From Shigella phage KNP5: a DNA stretch of 64,000 nt. Of the stretch, positions 6,825 to 63,312 are shown piece by piece. The notes under the pieces are model-generated. The model saw only the letters and a list, made by a program, of their open reading frames with translations. It did no database searches and was not told the origin of the DNA. The position numbers and the translations under genes were made by a program. The stretch's first letter is position 1. Each line of letters opens with the position of its first letter. The DNA lies in the sequence record KX452698, one strand, 5' to 3'.

Positions 6825-6955
6825 TAGTTTTGTGAAAAAATTTTTAAAAATTTTTAGGGAATTCTAGGGCAGGGAGGGGCAATTAAAAGATAGGATAATA
6901 TATTATAAAGGGTAGAAACTAAATGATGTCTAGAGAGGTCCAGAAAGGCCTAGAT

Positions 6956-9135: not shown

Positions 9136-9715
9136 TTAAAGCAAATTAAACATTTTAACGGTCGGCAAAACAATTTCTTCTTCTATATAAGAGTATTTAA
9201 CACTCTCAACTACACGCAAAAAATCATAATCATAATACTCAGAAGCATTACCTAAAATATTAATAAGTCCTTCAAGCACTTTATTACCATTCACAAAGAA
9301 TAAGTCAAATACACGTTCTTCATCTTCTTCAGATTTATTACCAAGATCAACTTCTATGCGAAAGACCTTTTTAATGAATTCTGGATAAAGCTGGTCTGAG
9401 AACAGTCCTTCAACCNNNNNNNNNNNNNNNNNNNNNNNNNNNNNNNNNNNNNNNNNNNNNNNNNNNNNNNNNNNNNNNNNNNNNNNNNNNNNNNNNNNNN
9501 NNNNNNNNNNNNNNACCACAATAGCGCTCAATTTTAGTACTAGAATATCTGCTTTTAAACTTCTTCAAAAGATACTGAAATTGTAAGATTTCATGCTCTT
9601 CTACGCCAAACAATGTTTTGGTTTTATTGTTGTCGCCATCATTTTCCCAGGTAGTGACATCAATTACGTAGCCCTGCGGAATTGTAGTACCTAAACAAAT
9701 ATTCATTTTCACCAC
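9136..9715 (-). CDS. hypothetical protein interrupted by a 99-nt unresolved (N) block
   Basis: ORFs 9410..9715 and 9136..9531 flank the N run in different frames; probably one gene of about 190 aa. Confidence 0.4.
9416..9514. other. unresolved sequence (99 N)
   Basis: run of n characters. Confidence 1.
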
Positions 9716-12470: not shown

Positions 12471-13001
12471 TTAAACTTCTGCTATAATTTTGCCATCTTT
12501 TTCTACTTGAAAATACGTATAAGGAATCGTTGCTGTGCATACTAAAGCTGGGTCTGAATCTTCTGTGTAGCTAAATTCTACTTCAGACAGGTCAGAAACC
12601 CAAGGCTTATAAAAATTTATTGACATCACAATTTCAGTTTTACTATTATCTAAAATGTAAAGCGTAATGTATTCAGGACCTGTTTTTTGGGCAGTATTTT
12701 CACCTGTAAGATAGTTACTAGTTCCTAGCATCCATTCATACATTCCTATCCACGACTTAAGCTCTTCATCAACTATAAATCTCACGATGAGTGGATCGTA
12801 CTCAAATGTAACTCCTGGACGCTGTGCTCTACCTAGTCCAAACGGCCCAGTCACGGTATCAGTAACAGGTATTCTAATTCCCGGAATAGGAACTGATTGA
12901 GCATTTAAAGTAAAAGCAGATGTAGTATTACTATGTGGTATTGATACTACAAAGTTAGTTGTATTTGCTTGGTTAAAAATTTGTTGCAGTGCTTGCGACA
13001 T
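12471..13001 (-). CDS. 3: tail tube terminator / sheath stabiliser gp3
   Basis: start trimmed to the ATG at 13001 with GAGGA SD (MSQALQQIF...), giving 176 aa as in T4 gp3. Confidence 0.85.
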   Translation of the reverse strand: MSQALQQIFNQANTTNFVVSIPHSNTTSAFTLNAQSVPIPGIRIPVTDTVTGPFGLGRAQRPGVTFEYDPLIVRFIVDEELKSWIGMYEWMLGTSNYLTGENTAQKTGPEYITLYILDNSKTEIVMSINFYKPWVSDLSEVEFSYTEDSDPALVCTATIPYTYFQVEKDGKIIAEV

Positions 13002-19547: not shown

Positions 19548-22500
19548 CAGTAAAAGCACCTTCAGTCACTAGTCTCAGAATTTCCAAGTTATCCGCAAAT
19601 CAGGTGCAAGTACGCTGGGATGACGTTGGTGCTAATTTCTACTATTTTGTAGAAATCGCTGAGACAAAAACAAACTCGGGGGAAAATCTCCCGAGTAATC
19701 AATACAGATGGATTAACTTAGGATATACTGCAAATAACAGCTTCTTTTTTGATGATGCTGACCCGTTGACATCATACGTTATTAGAGTAGCTACAGCTGC
19801 ACAAGATTTTGAGCAGTCTGATTGGATTTATACCGAAGAGTTTGAAACTTTTGCTACAAATGCTTATACATTTCAAAACATGATTAAAATGCAATTAGCC
19901 AATAAATTCATTCAGGAAAAATTTACTCTTAATAATTCTGATTATGTTAATTTTAACAATGACACTATAATGGCTGCATTGATGAATGAATCATTCCAAT
20001 TCAGCCCATCATATGTTGACGTTTCATCAATAAGTAATTTTATTATTGGTGAAAATGAGTATCATGAAATACAGGGTTCTATTCAGCAAGTATGTAAGGA
20101 TATTAACCGAGTTTATTTGATGGAATCAGAAGGGGTTCTATATCTTTTTGAGCGCTATCAGCCTGTAGTTAAAGTATCCAATGATAAAGGACAAACCTGG
20201 AAAGCTGTAAAGCTCTTCAATGACCGCGTAGGATATCCTTTATCTAAGACGGTATATTACCAATCTGCAAACACAACATACGTTCTAGGATACGACAAGA
20301 TTTTCTATGGCCGCAAATCTACTGATGTTAGATGGTCAGCCGATGATGTCAGATTTAGTTCTCAGGATATAACATTCGCTAAACTTGGCGACCAATTGCA
20401 TTTAGGATTTGATGTAGAAATTTTTGCCACTTACGCGACTTTACCGGCGAATGTATACCGCATTGCAGAAGCTATTACTTGCACCGATGATTACATTTAC
20501 GTTGTTGCCAGAGACAAAGTTAGATACATAAAAACAAGTAATGCACCTATAGATTCTGATCCATTATCTCCAACATATTCGGAAAGGCTTTTTGAACCTG
20601 ATACAATGACTATAACTGGAAATCCTAAAGCAGTATGCTATAAAATGGATTCTATCGGTGATAAAGTTTTTGCTCTTATTATTGGTGAAGTTGAAACATT
20701 AAATGCTAATCCTAGAACATCAAAAATAATTGATTCTGCTGATAAAGGAATATATGTTTTAAATCATGACACAAAAACGTGGAAAAGAGTTTTTGGCAAT
20801 ACTGAAGAAGAAAGAAGACGTATTCAACCGGGGTATGCGAATATGTCAACTGATGGTAAATTAGTTTCTCTATCATCGAGTAATTTTAAATTTTTAAGTG
20901 ATAACGTTGTTAATGACCCTGAAACTGCAGCAAAATATCAGTTAATCGGTGCTGTTAAATATGAATTTCCTCGTGAATGGTTAGCTGATAAGCATTATCA
21001 TATGATGGCATTTATAGCAGATGAAAAGTCTGATTGGGAAACTTTTACGCCTCAGCCGATGAAATACTATGCAGAACCATTCTTTAACTGGTCTAAAAAA
21101 TCTAACACACGGTGTTGGATAAACAACTCTGATAGAGCTGTAGTAGTTTATGCTGATTTAAAATACACTAAAGTTATTGAAAATTTTCCAGAAACATCTC
21201 CAGATAGATTAGTTCATGAATACTGGGATGACGGCGATTGCACTATAGTAATGCCAAATGTTAAATTCACTGGATTTAAAAAATATGCATCTGGGATGCT
21301 TTTCTATAAATCCTCCGGTGAAATAATTTCTTACTATGATTTTAACTATCGTGTTAGAGACACTGTCGAAATTATTTGGAAGCCAACTGGAGTATTTTTA
21401 AAGGCATTTTTACAAAACCAAGAACATGAAACTCCTTGGTCGCCTGAAGAAGAGCGTGGATTAGCTGACCCTGATTTAAGACCATTAATTGGCACAATGA
21501 TGCCTGATTCTTATTTGTTGCAGGATTCGAATTTTGAGGCATTTTGCGAAGCATATATTCAGTATCTTTCTGATGGATATGGAACTCAGTATAACAATTT
21601 ACGAAATTTAATTCGTAACAAATATCCACGAGAAGAGCATGCGTGGGAGTATTTGTGGTCAGAGATATATAAAAGAAACATTTATTTAAATGCTGACAAA
21701 CGTGATGCTGTTGCAAGATTTTTCGAATCACGTAGCTATGATTTTTATTCTACTAAAGGAATTGAAGCATCATACAAATTTCTTTTTAAAGTTCTTTATA
21801 ATGAAGAGGTTGAAATTGAAATTGAATCTGGGGCTGGTACTGAATATGATATAATCGTTCAATCTGATTCTTTGACCGAAGACTTAGTAGGACAAACGAT
21901 TTATACAGCTACAGGAAGATGTAATGTTACTTATATAGAAAGAAGCTATTCTAATGGTAAATTGCAATGGACCGTAACTATTCATAATCTTTTGGGAAGA
22001 TTGATTGCCGGTCAAGAAGTTAAAGCAGAAAGACTTCCGAGTTTTGAAGGCGAAATTATTCGTGGGGTTAAAGGAAAGGATTTGCTTCAAAATAATATAG
22101 ACTATATTAATAGAAGTCGATCATATTATGTAATGAAAATTAAATCCAATTTGCCTTCTTCCCGCTGGAAATCTGACGTTATTCGTTTTGTTCATCCAGT
22201 AGGATTTGGATTTATAGCAATTACCCTTTTAACGATGTTTATTAATGTTGGTTTAACTCTTAAACACACAGAGACTATAATTAATAAATACAAAAACTAT
22301 AAATGGGATTCTGGATTGCCTACTGAATATGCTGATAGAGTAGCTAAATTGACTCCGACTGGTGAAATTGAGCATGATTCGGTAACAGGCGAAGCAATTT
22401 ATGAACCTGGCCCAATGGCTGGCGTAGAATATCCTCTTCCTGATGACTATAATGCTGAAAATAACAATTCAATATTTCAAGGTCAATTGCCGTCTGAACG

Positions 22501-30079: not shown

Positions 30080-31781
<1,702 letters not shown>

Positions 31782-31822: not shown

Positions 31823-34960
<3,138 letters not shown>

Positions 34961-45875: not shown

Positions 45876-45964
45876 GTTATCGAGTTGGTGCCATTATATA
45901 CATCATTTTATGAGTGTGTTTTGTGTGCTTTCAAAATGAAGAAAGGGGCCGAAGCCCCTTATGA

Positions 45965-48036
45965 TTATGGATAGGTATAGATGATACCAGTTTCTAAAGC
46001 AGTTTTATGAATGATGTATCCATTACGTGATTCTTGAACATCAACTTCTGGATAGTCTTTCATCATCTTCTGAAGGGTGTAACGGTGCAGGTAGTATTTA
46101 CTATCTGGATCTTCAGTTTTCCAATCTTTACCTTCTTCGGTCATTTTTTGGATTTCATCCATAACCCACCAACCGCACCAGATATAAGCTGAAGTACGAT
46201 GTGGAAGAGGATGAACATAAGGCAATTCACCTTCTGGTTCCGGAGCAACTTTATCAGTCACCTGAACTTGGCCTGTTGCTTTAACTGTTTTACTGTCATA
46301 GTCAGTTGCTGTAACGACAGCAGTAACTTCAATAGTTTGACTTCCAATAGATGAGGTATCGACAGTATATACGTTAGTTGACCCTTCCACAGGAGAAGAA
46401 TCTTTCTTCCATGAATAAGTAATTTGTGCTGCTTCAGGTGCTCCAGTAACATTAGCTGTAAATGTAGCCGAAGCATCTTGCTGAACGTTAATAGAAGGAG
46501 GAGTCAATGCAACCTGTGGATTCATTGTCTTCTTATTAACCGTCAGTGACACTTCGTTGGAAGTAACTTCCTTTTCATTGTAATTTTCTGCAGTTACTTG
46601 CGCTACACATTTAATTCTTTTTACTCCACTTGTAGTTGGAGTATAGTTAAATGTAGAGTTAGTTTCTCCACCAATTTGAGAATCATCTACATACCATTTA
46701 TATGTAGCAGTTGCGCCGTCGGGTTGAGAAGCTAAGGCAGCAGTAAATTGAACAGCTGTTCCAATTACTCCAGCTGGAGGACTAGCAGGAGTTACAGCTA
46801 AGGTAGTTGTCTGCNNNNNNNNNNNNNNNNNNNNNNNNNNNNNNNNNNNNNNNNNNNNNNNNNNNNNNNNNNNNNNNNNNNNNNNNNNNNNNNNNNNNNN
46901 NNNNNNNNNNNNNNNNNNNNNNNNNNNNNNNNNNNNNNNNNNNNNNNNNNNNNNNNNNNNNNNNNNNNNNNNNNNNNNNNNNNNNNNNNNNNNNNNNNNN
47001 NNNNNNNNNNNNNNNNNNNNNNNNNNNNNNNNNNNNNNNNNNNNNNNNNNNNNNNNNNNNNNNNNNNNNNNNNNNNNNNNNNNNNNNNNNNNNNNNNNNN
47101 NNNNNNNNNNNNNNNNNNNNNNNNNNNNNNNNNNNNNNNNNNNNNNNNNNNNNNNNNNNNNNNNNNNNNNNNNNNNNNNNNNNNNNNNNNNNNNNNNNNN
47201 NNNNNNNNNNNNNNNNNNNNNNNNNNNNNNNNNNNNNNNNNNNNNNNNNNNNNNNNNNNNNNNNNNNNNNNNNNNNNNNNNNNNNNNNNNNNNNNNNNNN
47301 NNNNNNNNNNNNNNNNNNNNNNNNNNNNNNNNNNNNNNNNNNNNNNNNNNNNNNNNNNNNNNNNNNNNNNNNNNNNNNNNNNNNNNNNNNNNNNNNNNNN
47401 NNNNNNNNNNNNNNNNNNNNNNNNNNNNNNNNNNNNNNNNNNNNNNNNNNNNNNNNNNNNNNNNNNNNNNNNNNNNNNNNNNNNNNNNNNNNNNNNNNNN
47501 NNNNNNNNNNNNNNNNNNNNNNNNNNNNNNNNNNNNNNNNNNNNNNNNNNNNNNNNNNNNNNNNNNNNNNNNNNNNNNNNNNNNNNNNNNNNNNNNNNNN
47601 NNNNNNNNNNNNNNNNNNNNNNNNNNNNNNNNNNNNNNNNNNNNNNNNNNNNNNNNNNNNNNNNNNNNNNNNNNNNNNNNNNNNNNNNNNNNNNNNNNNN
47701 NNNNNNNNNNNNNNNNNNNNNNNNNNNNNNNNNNNNNNNNNNNNNNNNNNNNNNNNNNNNNNNNNNNNNNNNNNNNNNNNNNNNNNNNNNNNNNNNNNNN
47801 NNNNCAGCTTCTGGAACTGTATTTGTTGCAACCACCTTAATAGTCTTTTGACCGGCAGGTCCTTTTAATACATAATCAAAAGTTGCTTCAGCTCCATCCT
47901 GTGGAACATTATCTACACTCCAAGCATAGGTAATAGTTCCACCTTCGGTTTGACCACTTGGTGCAGCAGTAAACTGCTTGGTTTCATCAATAACTCCAGT
48001 AGGTGTTTTAGGAGTTATATCAACTGTAAAAGCCAT
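45965..48036 (-). CDS. hoc: highly immunogenic outer capsid protein Hoc, interrupted by a 990-nt unresolved block
   Basis: N-terminal 77 aa (MAFTVDITPKTPTGVIDETKQF) before the gap and 282 aa after it (QTTTLAVTPASP ... IIYTYP) match T4 Hoc; flanks are in different frames. Confidence 0.85.
46815..47804. other. unresolved sequence (990 N) inside hoc
   Basis: run of n characters; ORFs called through it are artefacts. Confidence 1.
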
Positions 48037-48045
48037 AAGTTATCC

Positions 48046-48726
48046 TTATTTTAATGTTACGAAAGAAGAATTACGTGTTTCACGAATTAGAACTGATCCG
48101 TCACGATTAATGTAGTAAATTAAGCTAAACAAAGTTTGGTGTGCTGACGCGTGTTCAAAACTAGTTGGGTGAGATTTCCAATCCGGAGTTTCAGCAATCC
48201 ATTGGTAAATCCACCAAGGAACAGTGCAGAATCCTGGATTTTTTCCAATCAGCTGAAGATTTGGGCTAAAGTTTTCCGGAAGAGTAAATACAGACGGCTT
48301 TTCAGATTCAATAATCTCAGCTACAGCCTGTTCGAATTTTTCTTCAACAAAAGGAGTATCTTCAATCAAAACATCGGTATTTTCAGGAATTTTATCCGTT
48401 TCTACTACTTCAATTTTAATGTCAGATTTAACCGGAGAATCAATCAGAAGTGCTGCCTCTGGATTGACTTCTTCATCGTCATATTTTAATCCGTCTGCGG
48501 CATCAGCAGCATCAATTAAGTCTTTAATAGATAACCCATCAGTCTCTGGCATAGGTTCACTAGCGAGCTTCTGGAGGGCTTCTTCAATATCAATAACGAT
48601 ATTATCAAAAGATTTATTCTTTTTGACCTTTATACCAAACTGTTCAGCATATTCAGCTAATTTAGCTTTAGCTTCTTTATTATCATCAAGAGCCTTCAGC
48701 TCTGCAATATAATCTTTATCTATCAT
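48046..48726 (-). CDS. inh: inhibitor of prohead protease
   Basis: 226 aa; position after hoc as in T4. Confidence 0.8.
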   Translation of the reverse strand: MIDKDYIAELKALDDNKEAKAKLAEYAEQFGIKVKKNKSFDNIVIDIEEALQKLASEPMPETDGLSIKDLIDAADAADGLKYDDEEVNPEAALLIDSPVKSDIKIEVVETDKIPENTDVLIEDTPFVEEKFEQAVAEIIESEKPSVFTLPENFSPNLQLIGKNPGFCTVPWWIYQWIAETPDWKSHPTSFEHASAHQTLFSLIYYINRDGSVLIRETRNSSFVTLK

Positions 48727-48776
48727 AATATTTCCTCAGTATAAATATAGATATATTTATTACATGGTATTTAGAC

Positions 48777-50288
48777 ATGACTGACATTAAAGTACATTTT
48801 TATGATTTTAGTCACGTGAGAATTGATTGTGAAGAAAGTACATTTCATGAACTCCGTGATTTCTTTAGCTTTGAAGCTGATGGGTATCGTTTTAATCCGA
48901 AGTACAAATATGGTCACTGGGATGGACGAATCCGTCTTTTAGATTATAATCGCCTTCTTCCATTCGGCTTAGTCGGGCAAATTAAAAAGTTCTGTGATAA
49001 CTTTGGCTATAAAGCCTGGATTGACCCGCAGATTAACGAAAAAGAAGAATTATCAAGAAAAGATTTTGATGAATGGCTTTCTAAATTAGAAATCTATTCA
49101 GGAAATAAAAGAATTGAACCACACTGGTATCAAAAAGATGCAGTGTTCGAAGGATTAGTTAATCGTCGTAGAATTCTTAATCTTCCAACATCCGCAGGTA
49201 AATCTTTAATTCAAGCTTTGCTCGCTCGGTATTATTTGGAAAATTATGAAGGCAAAATTCTTATCATTGTTCCAACAACTGCTCTGACAACTCAGATGGC
49301 TGATGACTTTGTTGACTATCGTTTATTCAGTCATGCAATGATAAAGAAAATTGGTGGTGGAGCATCAAAAGATGATAAATATAAAAATGATGCACCAGTC
49401 GTTGTTGGCACATGGCAAACTGTAGTAAAACAGCCAAAAGAATGGTTCTCACAGTTTGGAATGATGATGAACGATGAATGCCATCTTGCCACAGGAAAAA
49501 GTATTTCATCTATCATATCAGGTTTAAATAACTGTATGTTCAAATTTGGTTTGTCTGGTTCATTACGTGATGGCAAAGCCAATATCATGCAGTATGTTGG
49601 AATGTTTGGTGAAATATTTAAGCCAGTAACGACTTCTAAATTAATGGAAGATGGACAAGTAACTGAGTTAAAAATTAATAGCATTTTTCTTCGCTATCCC
49701 GATGAGTTCACTACTAAATTAAAGGGAAAAACTTATCAAGAAGAAATAAAAATTATTACTGGACTCAGTAAAAGAAATAAATGGATCGCTAAATTAGCTA
49801 TTAAGCTTGCACAAAAAGATGAAAACGCTTTTGTCATGTTTAAACACGTATCGCACGGTAAAGCTATTTTCGATTTAATTAAAAATGAATACGATAAAGT
49901 TTATTACGTATCAGGGGAAGTTGATACCGAAACACGCAACGTAATGAAAACCTTAGCTGAAAACGGTAAAGGAATAATTATAGTAGCTAGTTATGGCGTA
50001 TTTTCTACTGGTATTTCAGTTAAAAATCTGCATCACGTTGTTTTAGCACACGGTGTTAAATCTAAAATTATTGTATTGCAAACAATAGGTCGCGTATTAC
50101 GTAAGCATGGTTCTAAAACAATCGCAACGGTCTGGGACCTCATCGATGATTGCGGTGTTAAGCCAAAATCTGCTAATACGAAAAAGAAATACGTTCATTT
50201 GAACTATCTTTTAAAACATGGCATTGATCGTATTCAGCGCTACGCAGATGAAAAATTTAATTACGTAATGAAAACAGTTAATTTATAA
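48777..50288 (+). CDS. uvsW: UvsW DNA/RNA helicase
   Basis: 503 aa; Walker A PTSAGKS, DECH box; matches T4 UvsW. Confidence 0.93.
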   Translation: MTDIKVHFYDFSHVRIDCEESTFHELRDFFSFEADGYRFNPKYKYGHWDGRIRLLDYNRLLPFGLVGQIKKFCDNFGYKAWIDPQINEKEELSRKDFDEWLSKLEIYSGNKRIEPHWYQKDAVFEGLVNRRRILNLPTSAGKSLIQALLARYYLENYEGKILIIVPTTALTTQMADDFVDYRLFSHAMIKKIGGGASKDDKYKNDAPVVVGTWQTVVKQPKEWFSQFGMMMNDECHLATGKSISSIISGLNNCMFKFGLSGSLRDGKANIMQYVGMFGEIFKPVTTSKLMEDGQVTELKINSIFLRYPDEFTTKLKGKTYQEEIKIITGLSKRNKWIAKLAIKLAQKDENAFVMFKHVSHGKAIFDLIKNEYDKVYYVSGEVDTETRNVMKTLAENGKGIIIVASYGVFSTGISVKNLHHVVLAHGVKSKIIVLQTIGRVLRKHGSKTIATVWDLIDDCGVKPKSANTKKKYVHLNYLLKHGIDRIQRYADEKFNYVMKTVNL

Positions 50289-50313
50289 GGGCTTCGGCCC
50301 TTTGGAGAAAAAA

Positions 50314-50544
50314 ATGTTACTAGAATTTAAACAATTTCTTTATGAAGCTTCTATTGATGAATTTATGGGTAAAATTGCCTCTTGTCAAACAATAGAAGGT
50401 CTAGAAGAACTTGAAGCTTATTATAAGAAAAGAGTTAAAGAAACTGAATTAAAAGATACTGATGACATCTCAGTCAGAGATGCTTTGGCAGGAAAAAGAG
50501 CTGAATTAGAAGATTCAGACGATGAAGTAGAAGAAAGCTTTTAA
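50314..50544 (+). CDS. uvsW.1: UvsW.1 accessory protein
   Basis: start at MLLEFKQFLYEAS, giving 76 aa as in T4. Confidence 0.8.
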   Translation: MLLEFKQFLYEASIDEFMGKIASCQTIEGLEELEAYYKKRVKETELKDTDDISVRDALAGKRAELEDSDDEVEESF

Positions 50545-53324: not shown

Positions 53325-54499
53325 TGAGTATGTTGCAACGCCCCGGATATCCAAATCTCAGCGTTAAATTATTTGAGAGTTATGACGCTTGGAGTAATAA
53401 TAGATTTGTTGAATTAGCTGCTACTATTACCACATTAACTATGCGGGATTCTCTTTATGGTCGAAATGAAGGAATGCTACAGTTTTATGATTCTAAAAAT
53501 ATCCATACAAAAATGGATGGAAATGAAATAATTCAGATTTCTGTAGCTAACGCAAACGATATTAATAATGTTAAAACACGAATTTATGGATGTAAGCATT
53601 TTTCTGTATCTGTAGATTCAAAGGGCGATAACATCATTGCTATTGAATTGGGAACTATTCATTCCATAGAAAATCTTAAATTTGGCAGACCGTTTTTCTC
53701 TGATGTAGGTGAATCTATAAAGGAAATGCTTGGCGTCATTTACCAGGATCGCACATTATTAACTCCAGCAATAAATGCTATAAATGCTTATGTTCCTGAT
53801 ATTCCATGGACTAGCACATTTGAAAACTATTTGTCATATGTCAGAGAAGTTGCTCTAGCTGTAGGAAGTGACAAATTTGTATTTGTATGGCAAGACATCA
53901 TGGGAGTTAACATGATGGACTATGATATGATGATAAATCAAGAACCATATCCAATGATTGTCGGTGAGCCATCTTTAATAGGTCAATTCATCCAAGAATT
54001 AAAATATCCATTAGCATATGATTTCGTTTGGTTGACTAAATCGAATCCTCACAAACGTGACCCAATGAAAAATGCTACTATCTATGCTCATTCATTTTTA
54101 GATTCTTCATTGCCAATGATTACTACAGGAAAGGGCGAAAACTCTATTGTAGTGTCCAGATCAGGTGCTTATTCTGAAATGACTTATAGGAATGGCTATG
54201 AAGAAGCTATTCGTCTTCAAACTATGGCGCAATATGACGGCTATGCTAAATGTTCTACTGTCGGTAATTTTAACTTGACTCCTGGCGTTAAAATTATTTT
54301 TAATGATAGTAAAAACCAATTTAAAACAGAATTTTACGTTGATGAAGTTATCCATGAATTATCCAATAATAATTCAGTAACTCATCTATATATGTTCACT
54401 AATGCAACGAAACTGGAAACAATAGACCCAGTTAAGGTTAAAAATGAATTTAAATCTGATACTACCACTGAAGAAAGTAGTTCTTCCAATAAGCAATAA
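53324..54499 (+). CDS. 27: baseplate hub protein gp27
   Basis: 391 aa, matches T4 gp27. Confidence 0.93.
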
Positions 54500-61254: not shown

Positions 61255-63312
61255 TTATCCTTGAACGAACTTGTAAGGCATGTTTGCAATATCTATGCAA
61301 GATGCAATAATTCCAAGAGATGATTCTACTTTTTGTTTAACATTTGATGAAACAAATGATGCAAAATCAACTCTGTCTTCTATTTCAATATCACCTGTCA
61401 TTGCAACTACTTCACCGGTTTCCATTAGACGGTCACCGTCATAAATTACTGATTCGGTGAGTTCTTCTGTAGTCATAACTTCAGCTTGAATAAGCTTGTT
61501 GTTAGTTTTAGCTGTTCCATCATTGTAAGATGCGTCGGTTATTTTATTGACTTTGACCATCAATCCACGCGGCAAAATGACTTCCATTTCATTTGAAGGC
61601 GCTAAACTTCCACCTGGTAAAACAACGTTGACTTTATCAGCCCCAGTAATAACCCATCCAATTCCAACTAAATTATCGCTAGAATTAACAAGTCCTTCAT
61701 CGTTTTTATCGATAGAAATGTTTAGACGCTTTTCGTCTGGTAAAACACCCACAGCTGAATCAGTCATCCAAGTACCAAAAATGTTTGGATATAATGATGT
61801 TGATACAAAATTTCTAAAATAAAAAACTCGATTTTTTACCAATGCTTCATATATTGAAGGTAACATTCGCTGTGAACGATATAAAGTAATACCTTTTGGC
61901 AGTCGATCACCATTTTTAAAGGCTGAATCTAAATTATCGATGGCTTGTTCTATTTCTGGTGCTGTTAAAATACTTGTACGCTCATCTGGATTATATAATC
62001 CCAAAAGAGCATTATTCATGTCTACATATCCTGAACCTACGTATTCACGAATTCCGCGTTTTTGTGCCGGTGTGTATTTAGATGAATCTTTATTTTCGAC
62101 TATAGAATGCAATGACCATCCAACGGTAAGAGCATATCCACGTAATTCTCTTCGAATAATCTTTGTTTTTATTGCATTCCAAGAATTTTGCACTAACTCA
62201 TTCGCAGCATCTTGATTTAAATGCGAATGCTTGTTAATATTTCTTTCTAACCAAGCACCTTTATATTTTTCTAAAGTATCATCAACTATAGAAGCAATAG
62301 TTTCTAAAGTTTTTATTGAAGTAATAGATTCTTTTCGTAATCTTTCTAAAGCTTTATTTTTTATTTCTGCATTAACATCAGATTCTTTATCTTCAGGAAT
62401 TATAGAAGCTTCTCTGAATGCCATTCCAGCTGTAACACTATTAAGAGCATTCTCTAATGCAAATCCTGAAGTAGAAATAACAGTTAATTCGTTAGCATCA
62501 GAAATTAAAGGCGCGTCAGCGGGTTTATTTAATTCTGCTGCTGAAGCCTCAAATTTTTGAAACATTGGTGTTTCAAATCTAGAAGATTCTAATGATTGAC
62601 TTTGCGCAATTGCTCTACGGGAAATTTTAACTTTAACGATTACAGCTTGGTCAGAACGTTTATCGTTTTCTTGCGCAATAGATGCTGCAATTGCCTCATT
62701 TTTAGTTACTTGAGCTCCGGTATCTTTATTGATATAAACATCGCCGACCTTCGATTCAACTTTAGTAAAGAGCTCGGTACTAATTTCAGGAACTCCTGGA
62801 ATGTCTTCTAATGATACATTTTTGCGATGTATAAGAATATATGCATACTTTTTATCGTAATCCCAGAGTTCCTTAAGAAGGACGTATCTGCCACCTGAAC
62901 GACTACGGATAAGTCTATCAGCAATAAGTTGAATTTGACGAGCTTGACCAGCAGTTTTAGACTTAAGAATACGGAGCATACAGGCATCAATTTTATACTG
63001 ACGCATCGTCTGCATTGCAACAGTAAAAACTGAATTGATGTAATTAATTGGGCTTGGACCGAGACCTTTTAATTTAGCAATTGAGCCTTTAGCAGTTAAT
63101 GTAAAAGGAACAATATGCATCATTTTATCGCCCATCTTTAAATCGCGATTAGTATCACCTCCAGATGTATAGGTACATAAACGAAAGCCTGGCTGTTCAA
63201 TTGCGTCATCAACATGAACTGAAAAAATTTGTGGTATTTTCTTCTTTGGATTTAAGTTTGTAATCGGAAGAGTAGTATCTTCGTCAAATAATTCTGTAAT
63301 GAGTTCCATCAT
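61255..63312 (-). CDS. alt: Alt ADP-ribosyltransferase (packaged, injected)
   Basis: 685 aa; matches my recollection of T4 Alt along its length; motifs LYRS, STS, EMEVILPRG. Confidence 0.92.
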   Translation of the reverse strand: MMELITELFDEDTTLPITNLNPKKKIPQIFSVHVDDAIEQPGFRLCTYTSGGDTNRDLKMGDKMMHIVPFTLTAKGSIAKLKGLGPSPINYINSVFTVAMQTMRQYKIDACMLRILKSKTAGQARQIQLIADRLIRSRSGGRYVLLKELWDYDKKYAYILIHRKNVSLEDIPGVPEISTELFTKVESKVGDVYINKDTGAQVTKNEAIAASIAQENDKRSDQAVIVKVKISRRAIAQSQSLESSRFETPMFQKFEASAAELNKPADAPLISDANELTVISTSGFALENALNSVTAGMAFREASIIPEDKESDVNAEIKNKALERLRKESITSIKTLETIASIVDDTLEKYKGAWLERNINKHSHLNQDAANELVQNSWNAIKTKIIRRELRGYALTVGWSLHSIVENKDSSKYTPAQKRGIREYVGSGYVDMNNALLGLYNPDERTSILTAPEIEQAIDNLDSAFKNGDRLPKGITLYRSQRMLPSIYEALVKNRVFYFRNFVSTSLYPNIFGTWMTDSAVGVLPDEKRLNISIDKNDEGLVNSSDNLVGIGWVITGADKVNVVLPGGSLAPSNEMEVILPRGLMVKVNKITDASYNDGTAKTNNKLIQAEVMTTEELTESVIYDGDRLMETGEVVAMTGDIEIEDRVDFASFVSSNVKQKVESSLGIIASCIDIANMPYKFVQG

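What the first reader, a model, noticed from the sequence alone, without database searches (positions are those of the whole stretch)
45965..48036. hoc is split by a 990-nt unresolved block that cannot be simple missing Hoc coding sequence
The readable flanks encode 77 aa (N-terminal) and 282 aa (C-terminal) that match T4 Hoc, which is 376 aa. Only about 17 aa (~50 nt) are unaccounted for, yet the block is 990 nt, and the two flanks are in different reading frames across an N run whose length is a multiple of 3. Either about 940 bp of extra material sits inside hoc (a mobile element such as a homing endonuclease ORF or intron, or extra tandem Ig-like domains with a frameshift) or the N run does not reflect the true length.
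Basis: partly seen in the sequence, partly recalled or inferred. Interest (0 to 1): 0.65.

Follow-up and report, generated by a model that had tools for sequence, protein, structure and literature searches.

The report
Assembly gap inside phage hoc gene
The 990 unreadable bases inside the capsid-decoration gene hoc are a scaffolding gap of arbitrary length in a draft T4-like phage genome, most likely hiding an ordinary linker plus one extra repeated Ig-like domain, not a 940-bp foreign insert.

Summary
Window 46815-47804 is 990 N inside hoc (minus strand). The flanks encode T4 Hoc residues 1-77 and 95-376 and are out of frame across the run.

The count of 990 is not a measurement.
- The window is 99.9% identical to the unannotated draft 'UNVERIFIED Escherichia phage KNP1'. 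Both carry the same 99-N run at the same site.
- That 99-N run stands for 41-44 nt in every gap-free relative, and it also breaks a reading frame.
- KNP1's other N-runs miss the true distance by up to 738 nt. Its 719-N run sits between flanks that overlap by 19 nt in pSs-1.

In about 115 gap-free relatives the same two hoc points are separated by about 49 nt (376-aa Hoc, as in KNP1 and T4) or about 337 nt (472-aa Hoc with one extra 288-nt Ig repeat, as in pSs-1, ECp13 and RB30). The maximum is 392 nt, and none has a mobile element in hoc.

The left edge of the gap carries 8 of the window's 36 differences from KNP1. It also matches exactly the inter-repeat junction of the closest 472-aa alleles. 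The hidden sequence is therefore probably about 337 nt.

Verdict: assembly artefact over a known repeat polymorphism. Low interest.

The parts
47805..48036 (-). hoc 5' fragment: ATG at 48036-48034, 77 codons (Ig-like domain 1, ending ...TNTVPEA) plus 1 base of codon 78
   Evidence: Translation. Matches T4 Hoc residues 1-76, E=3e-53. 232/232 nt identical to KNP1, ECp13, L028 and L034.
46815..47804 (.). Run of 990 N: a scaffold or assembly gap whose length is not a measurement
   Evidence: The homologous interval is 49 nt in KNP1 and 337 nt in ECp13, pSs-1 and L028. It is 47-392 nt in all sampled relatives.
45965..46814 (-). [quoted passage not shown]
   Evidence: Translation. Matches T4 Hoc residues 95-376, E=2e-174. 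Identical to KNP1 except in the first 61 nt.
46754..46814 (-). Divergent mosaic edge abutting the gap. It holds 8 of the 36 window-vs-KNP1 differences. The last 28 nt are the exact inter-repeat (D2|D3) junction of the closest 472-aa hoc alleles.
   Evidence: One search gives the SNP positions. One search gives Poisson P~6e-17 for 8 in 61 nt. Searches give the junction tables. No record matches this 125-nt edge above 96%. The mosaic 53-mer is absent from JGI metagenomes and GTDB genomes, and the 27-mer edge is absent from IMG/VR.
9416..9514 (.). The window's other N-run (99 N), used as an internal control. The same run at the same place occurs in KNP1. The true sequence in relatives is 41-44 nt inside one minus-strand ORF.
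48046..48726 (-). inh (prohead protease inhibitor), immediately upstream of hoc: the normal T4-type neighbourhood
   Evidence: ORF. Pfam Phage_Inh_N/C on identical proteins in 21 contigs. Annotation of ECp13 and pSs-1.
45944..45962 (-). GC-rich hairpin (AAGGGGC-TTCG-GCCCCTT on the minus strand) followed by a T-rich tract, just after the hoc stop: probably the hoc terminator
   Evidence: Sequence. A terminator is annotated at the equivalent place in G29 and OE5505. Not tested further.

Best explanation
The 990 N are a join between two contigs in a draft, reference-ordered or scaffolded assembly of a Tequatrovirus close to pSs-1 and KNP1. The number of N is a placeholder or a poor estimate, so neither the '940 extra bp' nor the frame shift across the run is real information.

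The break lies where hoc carries tandem 288-nt Ig-like repeats, which short-read assemblers collapse or break.

The real sequence is most likely the 49-nt domain-1 linker plus one additional Ig-like repeat. That gives 337 nt in all and an in-frame 472-aa Hoc like that of pSs-1, ECp13 and RB30. Less likely it is the 49-nt linker alone, giving a 376-aa Hoc as in T4 and KNP1.

Shown: the N lengths are unreliable, only two length classes occur in relatives, and the edge carries the inter-repeat signature. Inferred: which of the two classes this phage has, and that repeat collapse caused the break.
For: (1) Origin. The window is 99.9% identical to KX452694 'UNVERIFIED Escherichia phage KNP1', which has no annotation and 13 N-runs. 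Both share an identical 99-N run with identical flanks. Three KNP1 runs are exactly 99 N, which points to a placeholder.

(2) N length against truth.
- 99 N stands for 44 nt in Ec3-ASingh and 41-44 nt in 20 or more other phages.
- That site lies inside one ORF, and the window's flanks are out of phase across the 99 N too.
- KNP1 runs compared with the window or pSs-1: 5 N for 32 nt, 10 for 3, 86 for 138, 49 for -72 (flanks overlap), 99 for 140, 719 for -19 (flanks overlap), 588 for 316, 510 for 473, 67 for 138.

(3) Relatives.
- KNP1 has 49 real nt here, which restores a 376-aa Hoc.
- An evenly spread sample of 55 phage records gives 47-50 nt (31 records) or 337-392 nt (24 records).
- 27 loci from IMG/VR, ENA, Logan and NCBI give 49 nt (16), 337 nt (10) and 55 nt (1).
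- The species exemplar pSs-1 has 337 nt and a 472-aa Hoc.
- In the protein search the top 29 hits are 472 aa or (one) 468 aa. They are followed by a 355-aa G29 fragment, another 472-aa hit, and then 376-378-aa proteins. None is longer.

(4) The repeat is a known assembly breaker.
- RB30 hoc is annotated 'intragenic repeat led to appearance of additional immunoglobulin-like domain'.
- Logan contigs L039 and L040 end 110-119 codons into hoc.
- The Ec2-ASingh contig starts inside hoc.

(5) Evidence favouring 337 nt.
- 8 of the 36 differences from KNP1 lie in the 61 nt next to the gap.
- The terminal 28-mer gCAGACAACTACCTTAGCTGTAACTCCT is exact only at the D2|D3 junction of ECp13 and L028.
- Its first base G (codon ACG) occurs at 4 of 9 D2|D3 junctions and 0 of 28 D1|D2 junctions.
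- The window's domain start shares a 32-nt exact run with the ECp13 D2 start, against 23 nt for ECp13's own D3.
Against:
- The junction signature is not universal. More distant alleles have 27 of the 28 bases at the D1|D2 junction.
- Natural 376-aa alleles with a D2-start/D3-body chimera exist (P0032, L034).
- The right-hand contig stops 49 nt before the repeat, at a non-repeated sequence. Repeat collapse does not explain that stop.
- Where the number 990 came from is unknown. It is not the pSs-1 distance.
- The source record and its assembly method could not be identified.
Confidence: 0.9

Rival explanations
1. The gap hides only the 49-nt linker. This phage would then have the T4/KNP1-type 376-aa Hoc, and the N-run would be entirely spurious, like KNP1's 719-N run placed between overlapping contig ends.
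For: - KNP1 is identical to the window over the other 789 nt of the 3' fragment and all 232 nt of the 5' fragment, and it has 49 nt here.
- 49 nt is the commonest class.
- Long N-runs over zero real sequence occur in the sibling assembly.
- 376-aa alleles with a D2/D3 chimeric start exist.
Against: - If the phage were the same as KNP1 here, there would be no reason for a contig break, or for 8 SNPs in the last 61 nt.
- The edge 28-mer, including the ACG codon, was never seen at a D1|D2 junction (0 of 28).
Confidence: 0.22
2. The N count is roughly right because hoc carries two or three additional Ig-like repeats (625 or 913 nt in the gap, Hoc of 568-664 aa).
For: - Hoc homologues with 1 to 10 Ig domains exist in other phage genera (Fokine et al. 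2023, PMC10385173).
- IMG/VR relatives range from 277 to 558 aa.
- More repeats would make an assembly break more likely.
Against: - No Tequatrovirus-type relative sampled exceeds 392 nt here.
- Proteins with more repeats would outscore the 472-aa forms, yet none appeared.
- 990 does not fit 49+288k.
- N lengths in this assembly family are unreliable.
Confidence: 0.05
3. About 940 bp of foreign DNA (a free-standing homing endonuclease gene, a group I intron, or another mobile element) interrupts hoc.
For: - T-even genomes carry many homing endonuclease genes.
- SegE-like GIY-YIG and NUMOD3 genes are present or absent between inh, uvsW and uvsW.1, within 1-3 kb of hoc, in close relatives.
- 990 nt is a typical size for such an element.
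- hoc is non-essential, so disruption would be tolerated (AY101183 CDS note 'non-essential protein'; also established T4 knowledge).
Against: - None of about 115 gap-free relatives has any insertion inside hoc. All endonuclease genes seen are intergenic.
- A unique insert would normally assemble through rather than leave a gap.
- The size argument collapses once the N lengths are shown to be arbitrary.
Confidence: 0.03
4. hoc is truly inactivated in this phage by a frameshifting partial duplication or small indel in the repeat region, so the frame discordance is real even though the length is not.
For: Split hoc genes occur:
- G29 has a 55-nt tandem duplication in domain 2.
- OE5505, ACG-C40 and SfPhi01 are annotated with two Hoc pieces or fragments.
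Against: - Such cases are rare (about 4 of about 95 records).
- The frame discordance here is fully explained by the arbitrary N count, as it is at the 99-N site.
Confidence: 0.05

Closest known systems
T4 Hoc (highly immunogenic outer capsid protein; PDB 5vf3_Z, 8t1x; 376 aa)
   Same: Both readable fragments align end to end with T4 Hoc residues 1-76 and 95-376. The gene order is the same: rnlB-24.2-24.3-hoc-inh-uvsW.
   Different: The interval for residues 78-94 is replaced by 990 N. The sequence at the start of the second Ig domain differs from the T4/KNP1 type and resembles an inter-repeat junction.
472-aa Hoc with an intragenic 288-nt Ig-domain repeat (RB30 AY101183; pSs-1 gp193; ECp13; BF15)
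   Same: - The N-terminal 77 aa are identical to ECp13 and P0001.
- The C-terminal 282 aa are 98% identical to P0001 and P0002.
- The 28 nt at the gap edge are identical to the ECp13 and L028 D2|D3 junction.
- The window belongs to the pSs-1 species group, whose exemplar has this form.
   Different: The second repeat copy itself is not visible. The following 40 nt are a mosaic of D2-type and D3-type bases not seen in any record.
Draft record KX452694 'UNVERIFIED: Escherichia phage KNP1' (sibling assembly)
   Same: 99.9% identity over the whole window. It has the identical 99-N run and uses N-runs at repeated genes such as alt and the tail fibres.
   Different: KNP1 reads through hoc with 49 nt (376-aa form). 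It has N-runs in alt where the window is contiguous.
Free-standing homing endonuclease genes of T-even phages (seg/mob; GIY-YIG, NUMOD3/HNH)
   Same: Only the size of the N block and the genomic neighbourhood. Such genes are polymorphic next to uvsW in relatives.
   Different: None was found inside hoc in any relative, and no sequence is available here to test.

Membership tests
Hoc, T4-type capsid decoration protein | N-terminal string of Ig-like domains homologous to T4 Hoc | tested here: met
   phmmer against PDB: 5vf3_Z residues 1-76 (E=3e-53) and 95-376 (E=2e-174), with internal repeat matches between domains.
Hoc, T4-type capsid decoration protein | [quoted passage not shown] | tested here: met
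   Aligned without gaps to T4 residues 281-376, with 2 substitutions in the last 76 residues.
Hoc, T4-type capsid decoration protein | Position between inh and 24.3/24.2/rnlB | tested here: met
   ORFs. Annotated relatives. Identical Inh and RnlB proteins flank hoc in 20 contigs.
Hoc, T4-type capsid decoration protein | One uninterrupted ORF | not testable with these tools
   The joining sequence is N. Frames are discordant across 990 N, but they are equally discordant across the demonstrably wrong 99-N run.
472-aa Hoc variant with duplicated Ig domain (RB30/pSs-1 type) | Two tandem 288-nt Ig repeats between domain 1 and the MNPQV... domain | not testable with these tools
   The upstream copy would lie inside the N-run.
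472-aa Hoc variant with duplicated Ig domain (RB30/pSs-1 type) | Inter-repeat junction sequence (...AAAAAGAC|G CAG ACA ACT ACC TTA GCT...) at the start of the downstream copy | tested here: met
   28 of 28 nt identical to the ECp13 and L028 D2|D3 junction. The first-base G occurs at 4 of 9 D2|D3 junctions and 0 of 28 D1|D2 junctions. Suggestive, not decisive.
Mobile element (homing endonuclease gene or intron) inserted in hoc | Endonuclease ORF or intron structure within the block | not testable with these tools
   The block is all N.
Mobile element (homing endonuclease gene or intron) inserted in hoc | Presence/absence polymorphism at this site among close relatives | tested here: not met
   The interval never exceeds 392 nt in the 55 + 27 + 33 relatives examined. 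Endonuclease genes were seen only between inh/uvsW/uvsW.1.
Scaffolding gap of non-measured length | Other N-runs of the same assembly (or assembly family) disagree with the real sequence length | tested here: met
   99 N for 41-44 nt. KNP1 runs: 719 N for -19 nt, 588 for 316, 49 for -72, 5 for 32, and others.
Scaffolding gap of non-measured length | Gap located at repeated sequence that breaks assemblies | tested here: met
   - The tandem Ig repeats are about 80% identical, with a 32-nt exact run.
- Three other public assemblies break inside hoc.
- KNP1 gaps fall in the alt paralogues and in the tail-fibre genes gp259 and gp260; others fall in ordinary genes.
- The right edge is not at a repeat.

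The most novel reading that the evidence does not exclude
The N block really hides about 0.9-1 kb. That would be either a mobile element (homing endonuclease gene or intron) inserted in the domain-1/domain-2 linker of hoc, or a Hoc with three extra Ig-like repeats (about 664 aa). Neither has been seen in any Tequatrovirus.
Probability: 0.06. Interest if true: 0.4.

Novelty: not a real feature. Interest (0 to 1): 0.06.

Why it matters
It matters mainly as a caution. N-runs in draft phage records, here in a KNP1-like 'UNVERIFIED'-style assembly, carry no length or frame information. They should not be read as insertions.

Biologically, the only likely content is the known 376/472-aa Hoc length polymorphism, caused by duplication or loss of one 288-nt Ig-like repeat. 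That polymorphism is of some relevance to phage display and to mucus or cell adherence studies. It is already documented (RB30 record of 2002; Fokine et al. 2023).

A minor by-product concerns the 376-aa alleles in the nearest clade. Their different D2-to-D3 switch points are consistent with recurrent unequal recombination between the repeats, or with recurrent assembler collapse.

Tried and rejected
- Looked for the source record or an identical allele that reads through the gap. None was found.
  - The phage collection holds only KNP1 at 99% identity or more.
  - The 125-nt left edge matches nothing above 96%.
  - The 27-mer edge is absent from IMG/VR. The 53-mer mosaic is absent from JGI metagenomes and GTDB genomes.
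- Exact-protein look-ups of the neighbouring Inh and RnlB proteins gave 20 loci. The closest (Logan SRR27876834) is 98.9-99.6% identical and is a different phage.
- A literature search for KNP1 found nothing.
- Tested whether 990 is the distance in the likely reference, pSs-1. It is not: that distance is 337 nt.
- Considered that the N-runs were masks added by the data provider. Rejected, because KNP1's GenBank record carries the same 99-N run plus runs of 5-719 N, while ECp13, pSs-1 and Ec3-ASingh are unmasked at the same sites.
- Considered the junction 28-mer as a decisive marker. Downgraded, because more distant alleles have 27 of the 28 bases at the D1|D2 junction.
- PMC13390416 was read for Hoc domain-number variation and was not informative.
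- No structure prediction was run. The fragments are more than 90% identical to solved T4 Hoc, so it would add nothing.

Full report
**1. What is in the window**

The window has exactly two runs of N: 46815-47804 (990 N) and 9416-9514 (99 N). The 990-N run lies inside hoc, which is on the minus strand.
- Positions 48036-47806 encode 77 residues, MAFTVDITPK...TNTVPEA, with one spare base at 47805.
- From 46813 a different frame encodes 282 residues, QTTTLAVTP...IIYTYP, with the stop at 45967-45965.
- Against the PDB, the two pieces match T4 Hoc (5vf3_Z, 376 aa) at residues 1-76 (E=3e-53) and 95-376 (E=2e-174).
- A continuous ORF needs a gap length = 1 mod 3, but 990 = 0 mod 3.

The neighbours are the normal T4-type ones: gp24, rnlB, 24.2, 24.3, hoc, inh, uvsW.

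**2. Where the sequence comes from**

Of 722 phage records that match the 5-kb neighbourhood, only one is at least 99% identical: KX452694, 'UNVERIFIED: Escherichia phage KNP1' (India, unannotated, species group Tequatrovirus pss1). Over the whole window there are 36 substitutions in about 62 kb.

KNP1 has the same 99-N run, with identical flanks, at the place of window 9416-9514. It has 13 N-runs in all: 10, 99, 86, 49, 99, 5, 290, 183, 99, 719, 588, 510 and 67. Three of them are exactly 99.

The window is therefore a sibling draft from the same assembly procedure. The N-runs belong to the deposited sequence and are not biology. The source record itself is not in any collection I could search.

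**3. Do N-run lengths in this assembly mean anything? No.**

(a) The shared 99-N run corresponds to 44 nt in Ec3-ASingh, whose flanks are 99% identical, and to 41-44 nt in more than 20 other phages. In Ec3-ASingh the site lies inside one ORF (...KIERYCG NGLFSEQSLFIYEYL VEGLFSDQ...). The window's two flanks are out of phase across the 99 N, just as at hoc.

(b) KNP1's 5-N run equals 32 real nt in the window.

(c) Against pSs-1, KNP1's runs compare as follows:

| KNP1 N-run | True distance in pSs-1 |
|---|---|
| 10 | 3 |
| 86 | 138 |
| 49 | -72 (the flanks overlap) |
| 99 | 140 |
| 719 | -19 (the flanks overlap) |
| 588 | 316 |
| 510 | 473 |
| 67 | 138 |

The errors run from -71 to +738 nt. A 990-N run can therefore stand for 49 or 337 nt, and a frame mismatch across it is expected.

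**4. What relatives have between the same two points**

- KNP1 reads through with 49 nt, which restores a 376-aa T4-type Hoc.
- ECp13, the ENA contig L028 and the species exemplar pSs-1 have 337 nt. That is the same 49-nt linker plus one more 288-nt Ig-like repeat, about 80% identical to the next one, giving a 472-aa Hoc.
- An evenly spaced sample of 55 of the 646 matching phage records gives 47-50 nt in 31 records and 337-392 nt in 24.
- The top 33 distinct records of the first search give the same two classes.
- 27 loci from IMG/VR, ENA, Logan and NCBI give 49 nt (16), 337 nt (10) and 55 nt (1).
- A search of 5.8 billion proteins with the C-terminal fragment gave only 472-aa or (once) 468-aa proteins in the top 29. 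A 355-aa G29 fragment and one more 472-aa protein follow, then 376-378-aa proteins. Proteins with more repeats would have scored higher still, and none appeared.
- No relative has a mobile element in hoc. The homing-endonuclease genes seen (SegE-like GIY-YIG, NUMOD3) lie between inh, uvsW and uvsW.1.

The 472-aa form is long known. The RB30 hoc record annotates an 'intragenic repeat [that] led to appearance of additional immunoglobulin-like domain'. Fokine et al. 2023 describe Hoc homologues with up to 10 Ig domains in other genera (PMC10385173).

**5. Which of the two forms is hidden here**

Eight of the 36 differences from KNP1 fall in the 61 nt that abut the gap (46754-46814). The first difference to the right of the gap is 2.8 kb away. 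The Poisson probability of 8 in a given 61-nt stretch is about 6e-17, although substitutions are patchy in this genome. So this phage really differs from KNP1 at hoc.

In gene orientation, the edge reads g CAG ACA ACT ACC TTA GCT GTA ACT CCT.
- This 28-mer is identical to the junction between the two tandem repeats (D2|D3, preceded by ...SLTVNKKT) of ECp13 and L028.
- It differs at 4 positions from the domain-1/domain-2 junction of the whole nearest clade.
- Its first base G (Thr codon ACG) is found at 4 of 9 D2|D3 junctions and at 0 of 28 D1|D2 junctions.

The next about 40 nt switch between D2-type and D3-type bases four times. That pattern was found in no phage record (best 94-96%). The exact 53-mer mosaic is absent from JGI metagenomes and GTDB genomes, and the 27-mer edge is absent from IMG/VR. 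It would arise either from assembler bubble-popping over two similar repeat starts or from gene conversion between them. Both imply two repeats.

The window's repeat start also shares a 32-nt exact run with the ECp13 D2 start, against 23 nt for ECp13's own D3. That is enough to break small-k assemblies. Other public short-read assemblies break in the same place: Logan contigs end 110-119 codons into hoc, and the Ec2-ASingh contig starts inside hoc.

I therefore put about 0.65 on a 337-nt gap (472-aa Hoc) and about 0.22 on 49 nt (376-aa Hoc).

Caveats:
- More distant alleles carry 27 of the 28 bases at the D1|D2 junction.
- Natural 376-aa alleles with D2-start/D3-body chimeras exist.
- The right-hand contig stops at a non-repeated point 49 nt before the repeat, which I cannot explain.
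- The origin of the figure 990 is unknown. It is not the pSs-1 distance.

**6. Comparison with known things, and verdict**

The gene is Hoc by sequence, domain content and synteny. The only defining feature I could not test is ORF continuity. The best-fitting known variant is the RB30/pSs-1-type 472-aa Hoc. Its inter-repeat junction is present, but the second repeat itself is hidden.

Two readings are not excluded but have no positive support: a mobile element (about 0.03) and a Hoc with several more repeats (about 0.05). The only argument for either, the size of the block, fails once the N lengths are shown to be arbitrary.

The finding is a correct observation of an assembly artefact over a known repeat polymorphism. 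Its novelty class is 'not a real feature'. PCR or a single long read across 46650-47950 would settle the residual question, with expected products of about 300, about 590 or about 1240 bp.

Noticed in passing
window 9416-9514: A second N-run (99 N) lies inside a minus-strand ORF next to the tRNA cluster. The identical run occurs in KNP1 (record 62060-62158). Gap-free relatives have 41-44 nt there (15 codons, NGLFSEQSLFIYEYL, in Ec3-ASingh). The frames across it are also discordant.
   Followed up: yes
window 61751-62388 (alt gene region): The window is contiguous here and 99.5% identical to pSs-1 alt (ADP-ribosyltransferase). KNP1 has 290-N and 183-N runs around 576 nt of a divergent, apparently paralogous sequence. 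pSs-1 has two tandem alt-like genes (gp209, gp210), so KNP1 is probably mis-scaffolded at a paralogue.
   Followed up: partly
window 6915-6929, 12789-12831, 20161-20242, 30184-30376, 33000-33066, 53989-53990: The few differences between the window and KNP1 come in tight clusters of 2-4 substitutions. These could be small recombination patches typical of T-even mosaics, or consensus errors. They were not examined gene by gene.
   Followed up: no
L001 (KNP1), L005 (Ec2-ASingh), L034 (Logan SRR27876834): start of the second Ig domain of hoc: The 376-aa hoc alleles of the nearest clade begin like repeat D2 of the 472-aa form and switch to D3-type sequence at different points (about nt 37, about 85 and about 100 after the junction). 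This suggests recurrent loss of one 288-nt repeat by unequal recombination, or recurrent collapse by assemblers.
   Followed up: partly
L055 (vB_EcoM_G29, MK327940) hoc; L056 (OE5505, MK373785) hoc: G29 hoc carries a 55-nt perfect tandem duplication inside Ig domain 2. The duplication shifts the frame, and the gene is annotated as two 'PKD domain' ORFs. OE5505 hoc is also annotated as fragments. hoc is occasionally disrupted, or mis-assembled, in complete genomes.
   Followed up: partly
L028, L036, L038, L039, L045, L047, L048 versus window 48727-50544: Relatives carry a SegE-like GIY-YIG gene between inh and uvsW and/or a NUMOD3 endonuclease gene between uvsW and uvsW.1. The window has neither: the inh-uvsW spacer is 50 nt and uvsW.1 follows uvsW directly. 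This is an ordinary homing-endonuclease presence/absence polymorphism.
   Followed up: partly
KNP1 record 134426-135144 and 50315-50363 (L030, L029): The 719-N and 49-N runs in KNP1 separate flanks that overlap by 19 and 72 nt in pSs-1. The N-runs there were inserted between contig ends that should have been merged.
   Followed up: yes
window 45944-45962: A perfect GC-rich hairpin (AAGGGGC/GCCCCTT) followed by a T-rich tract on the minus strand, directly after the hoc stop. It is annotated as a terminator in G29 and OE5505.
   Followed up: no
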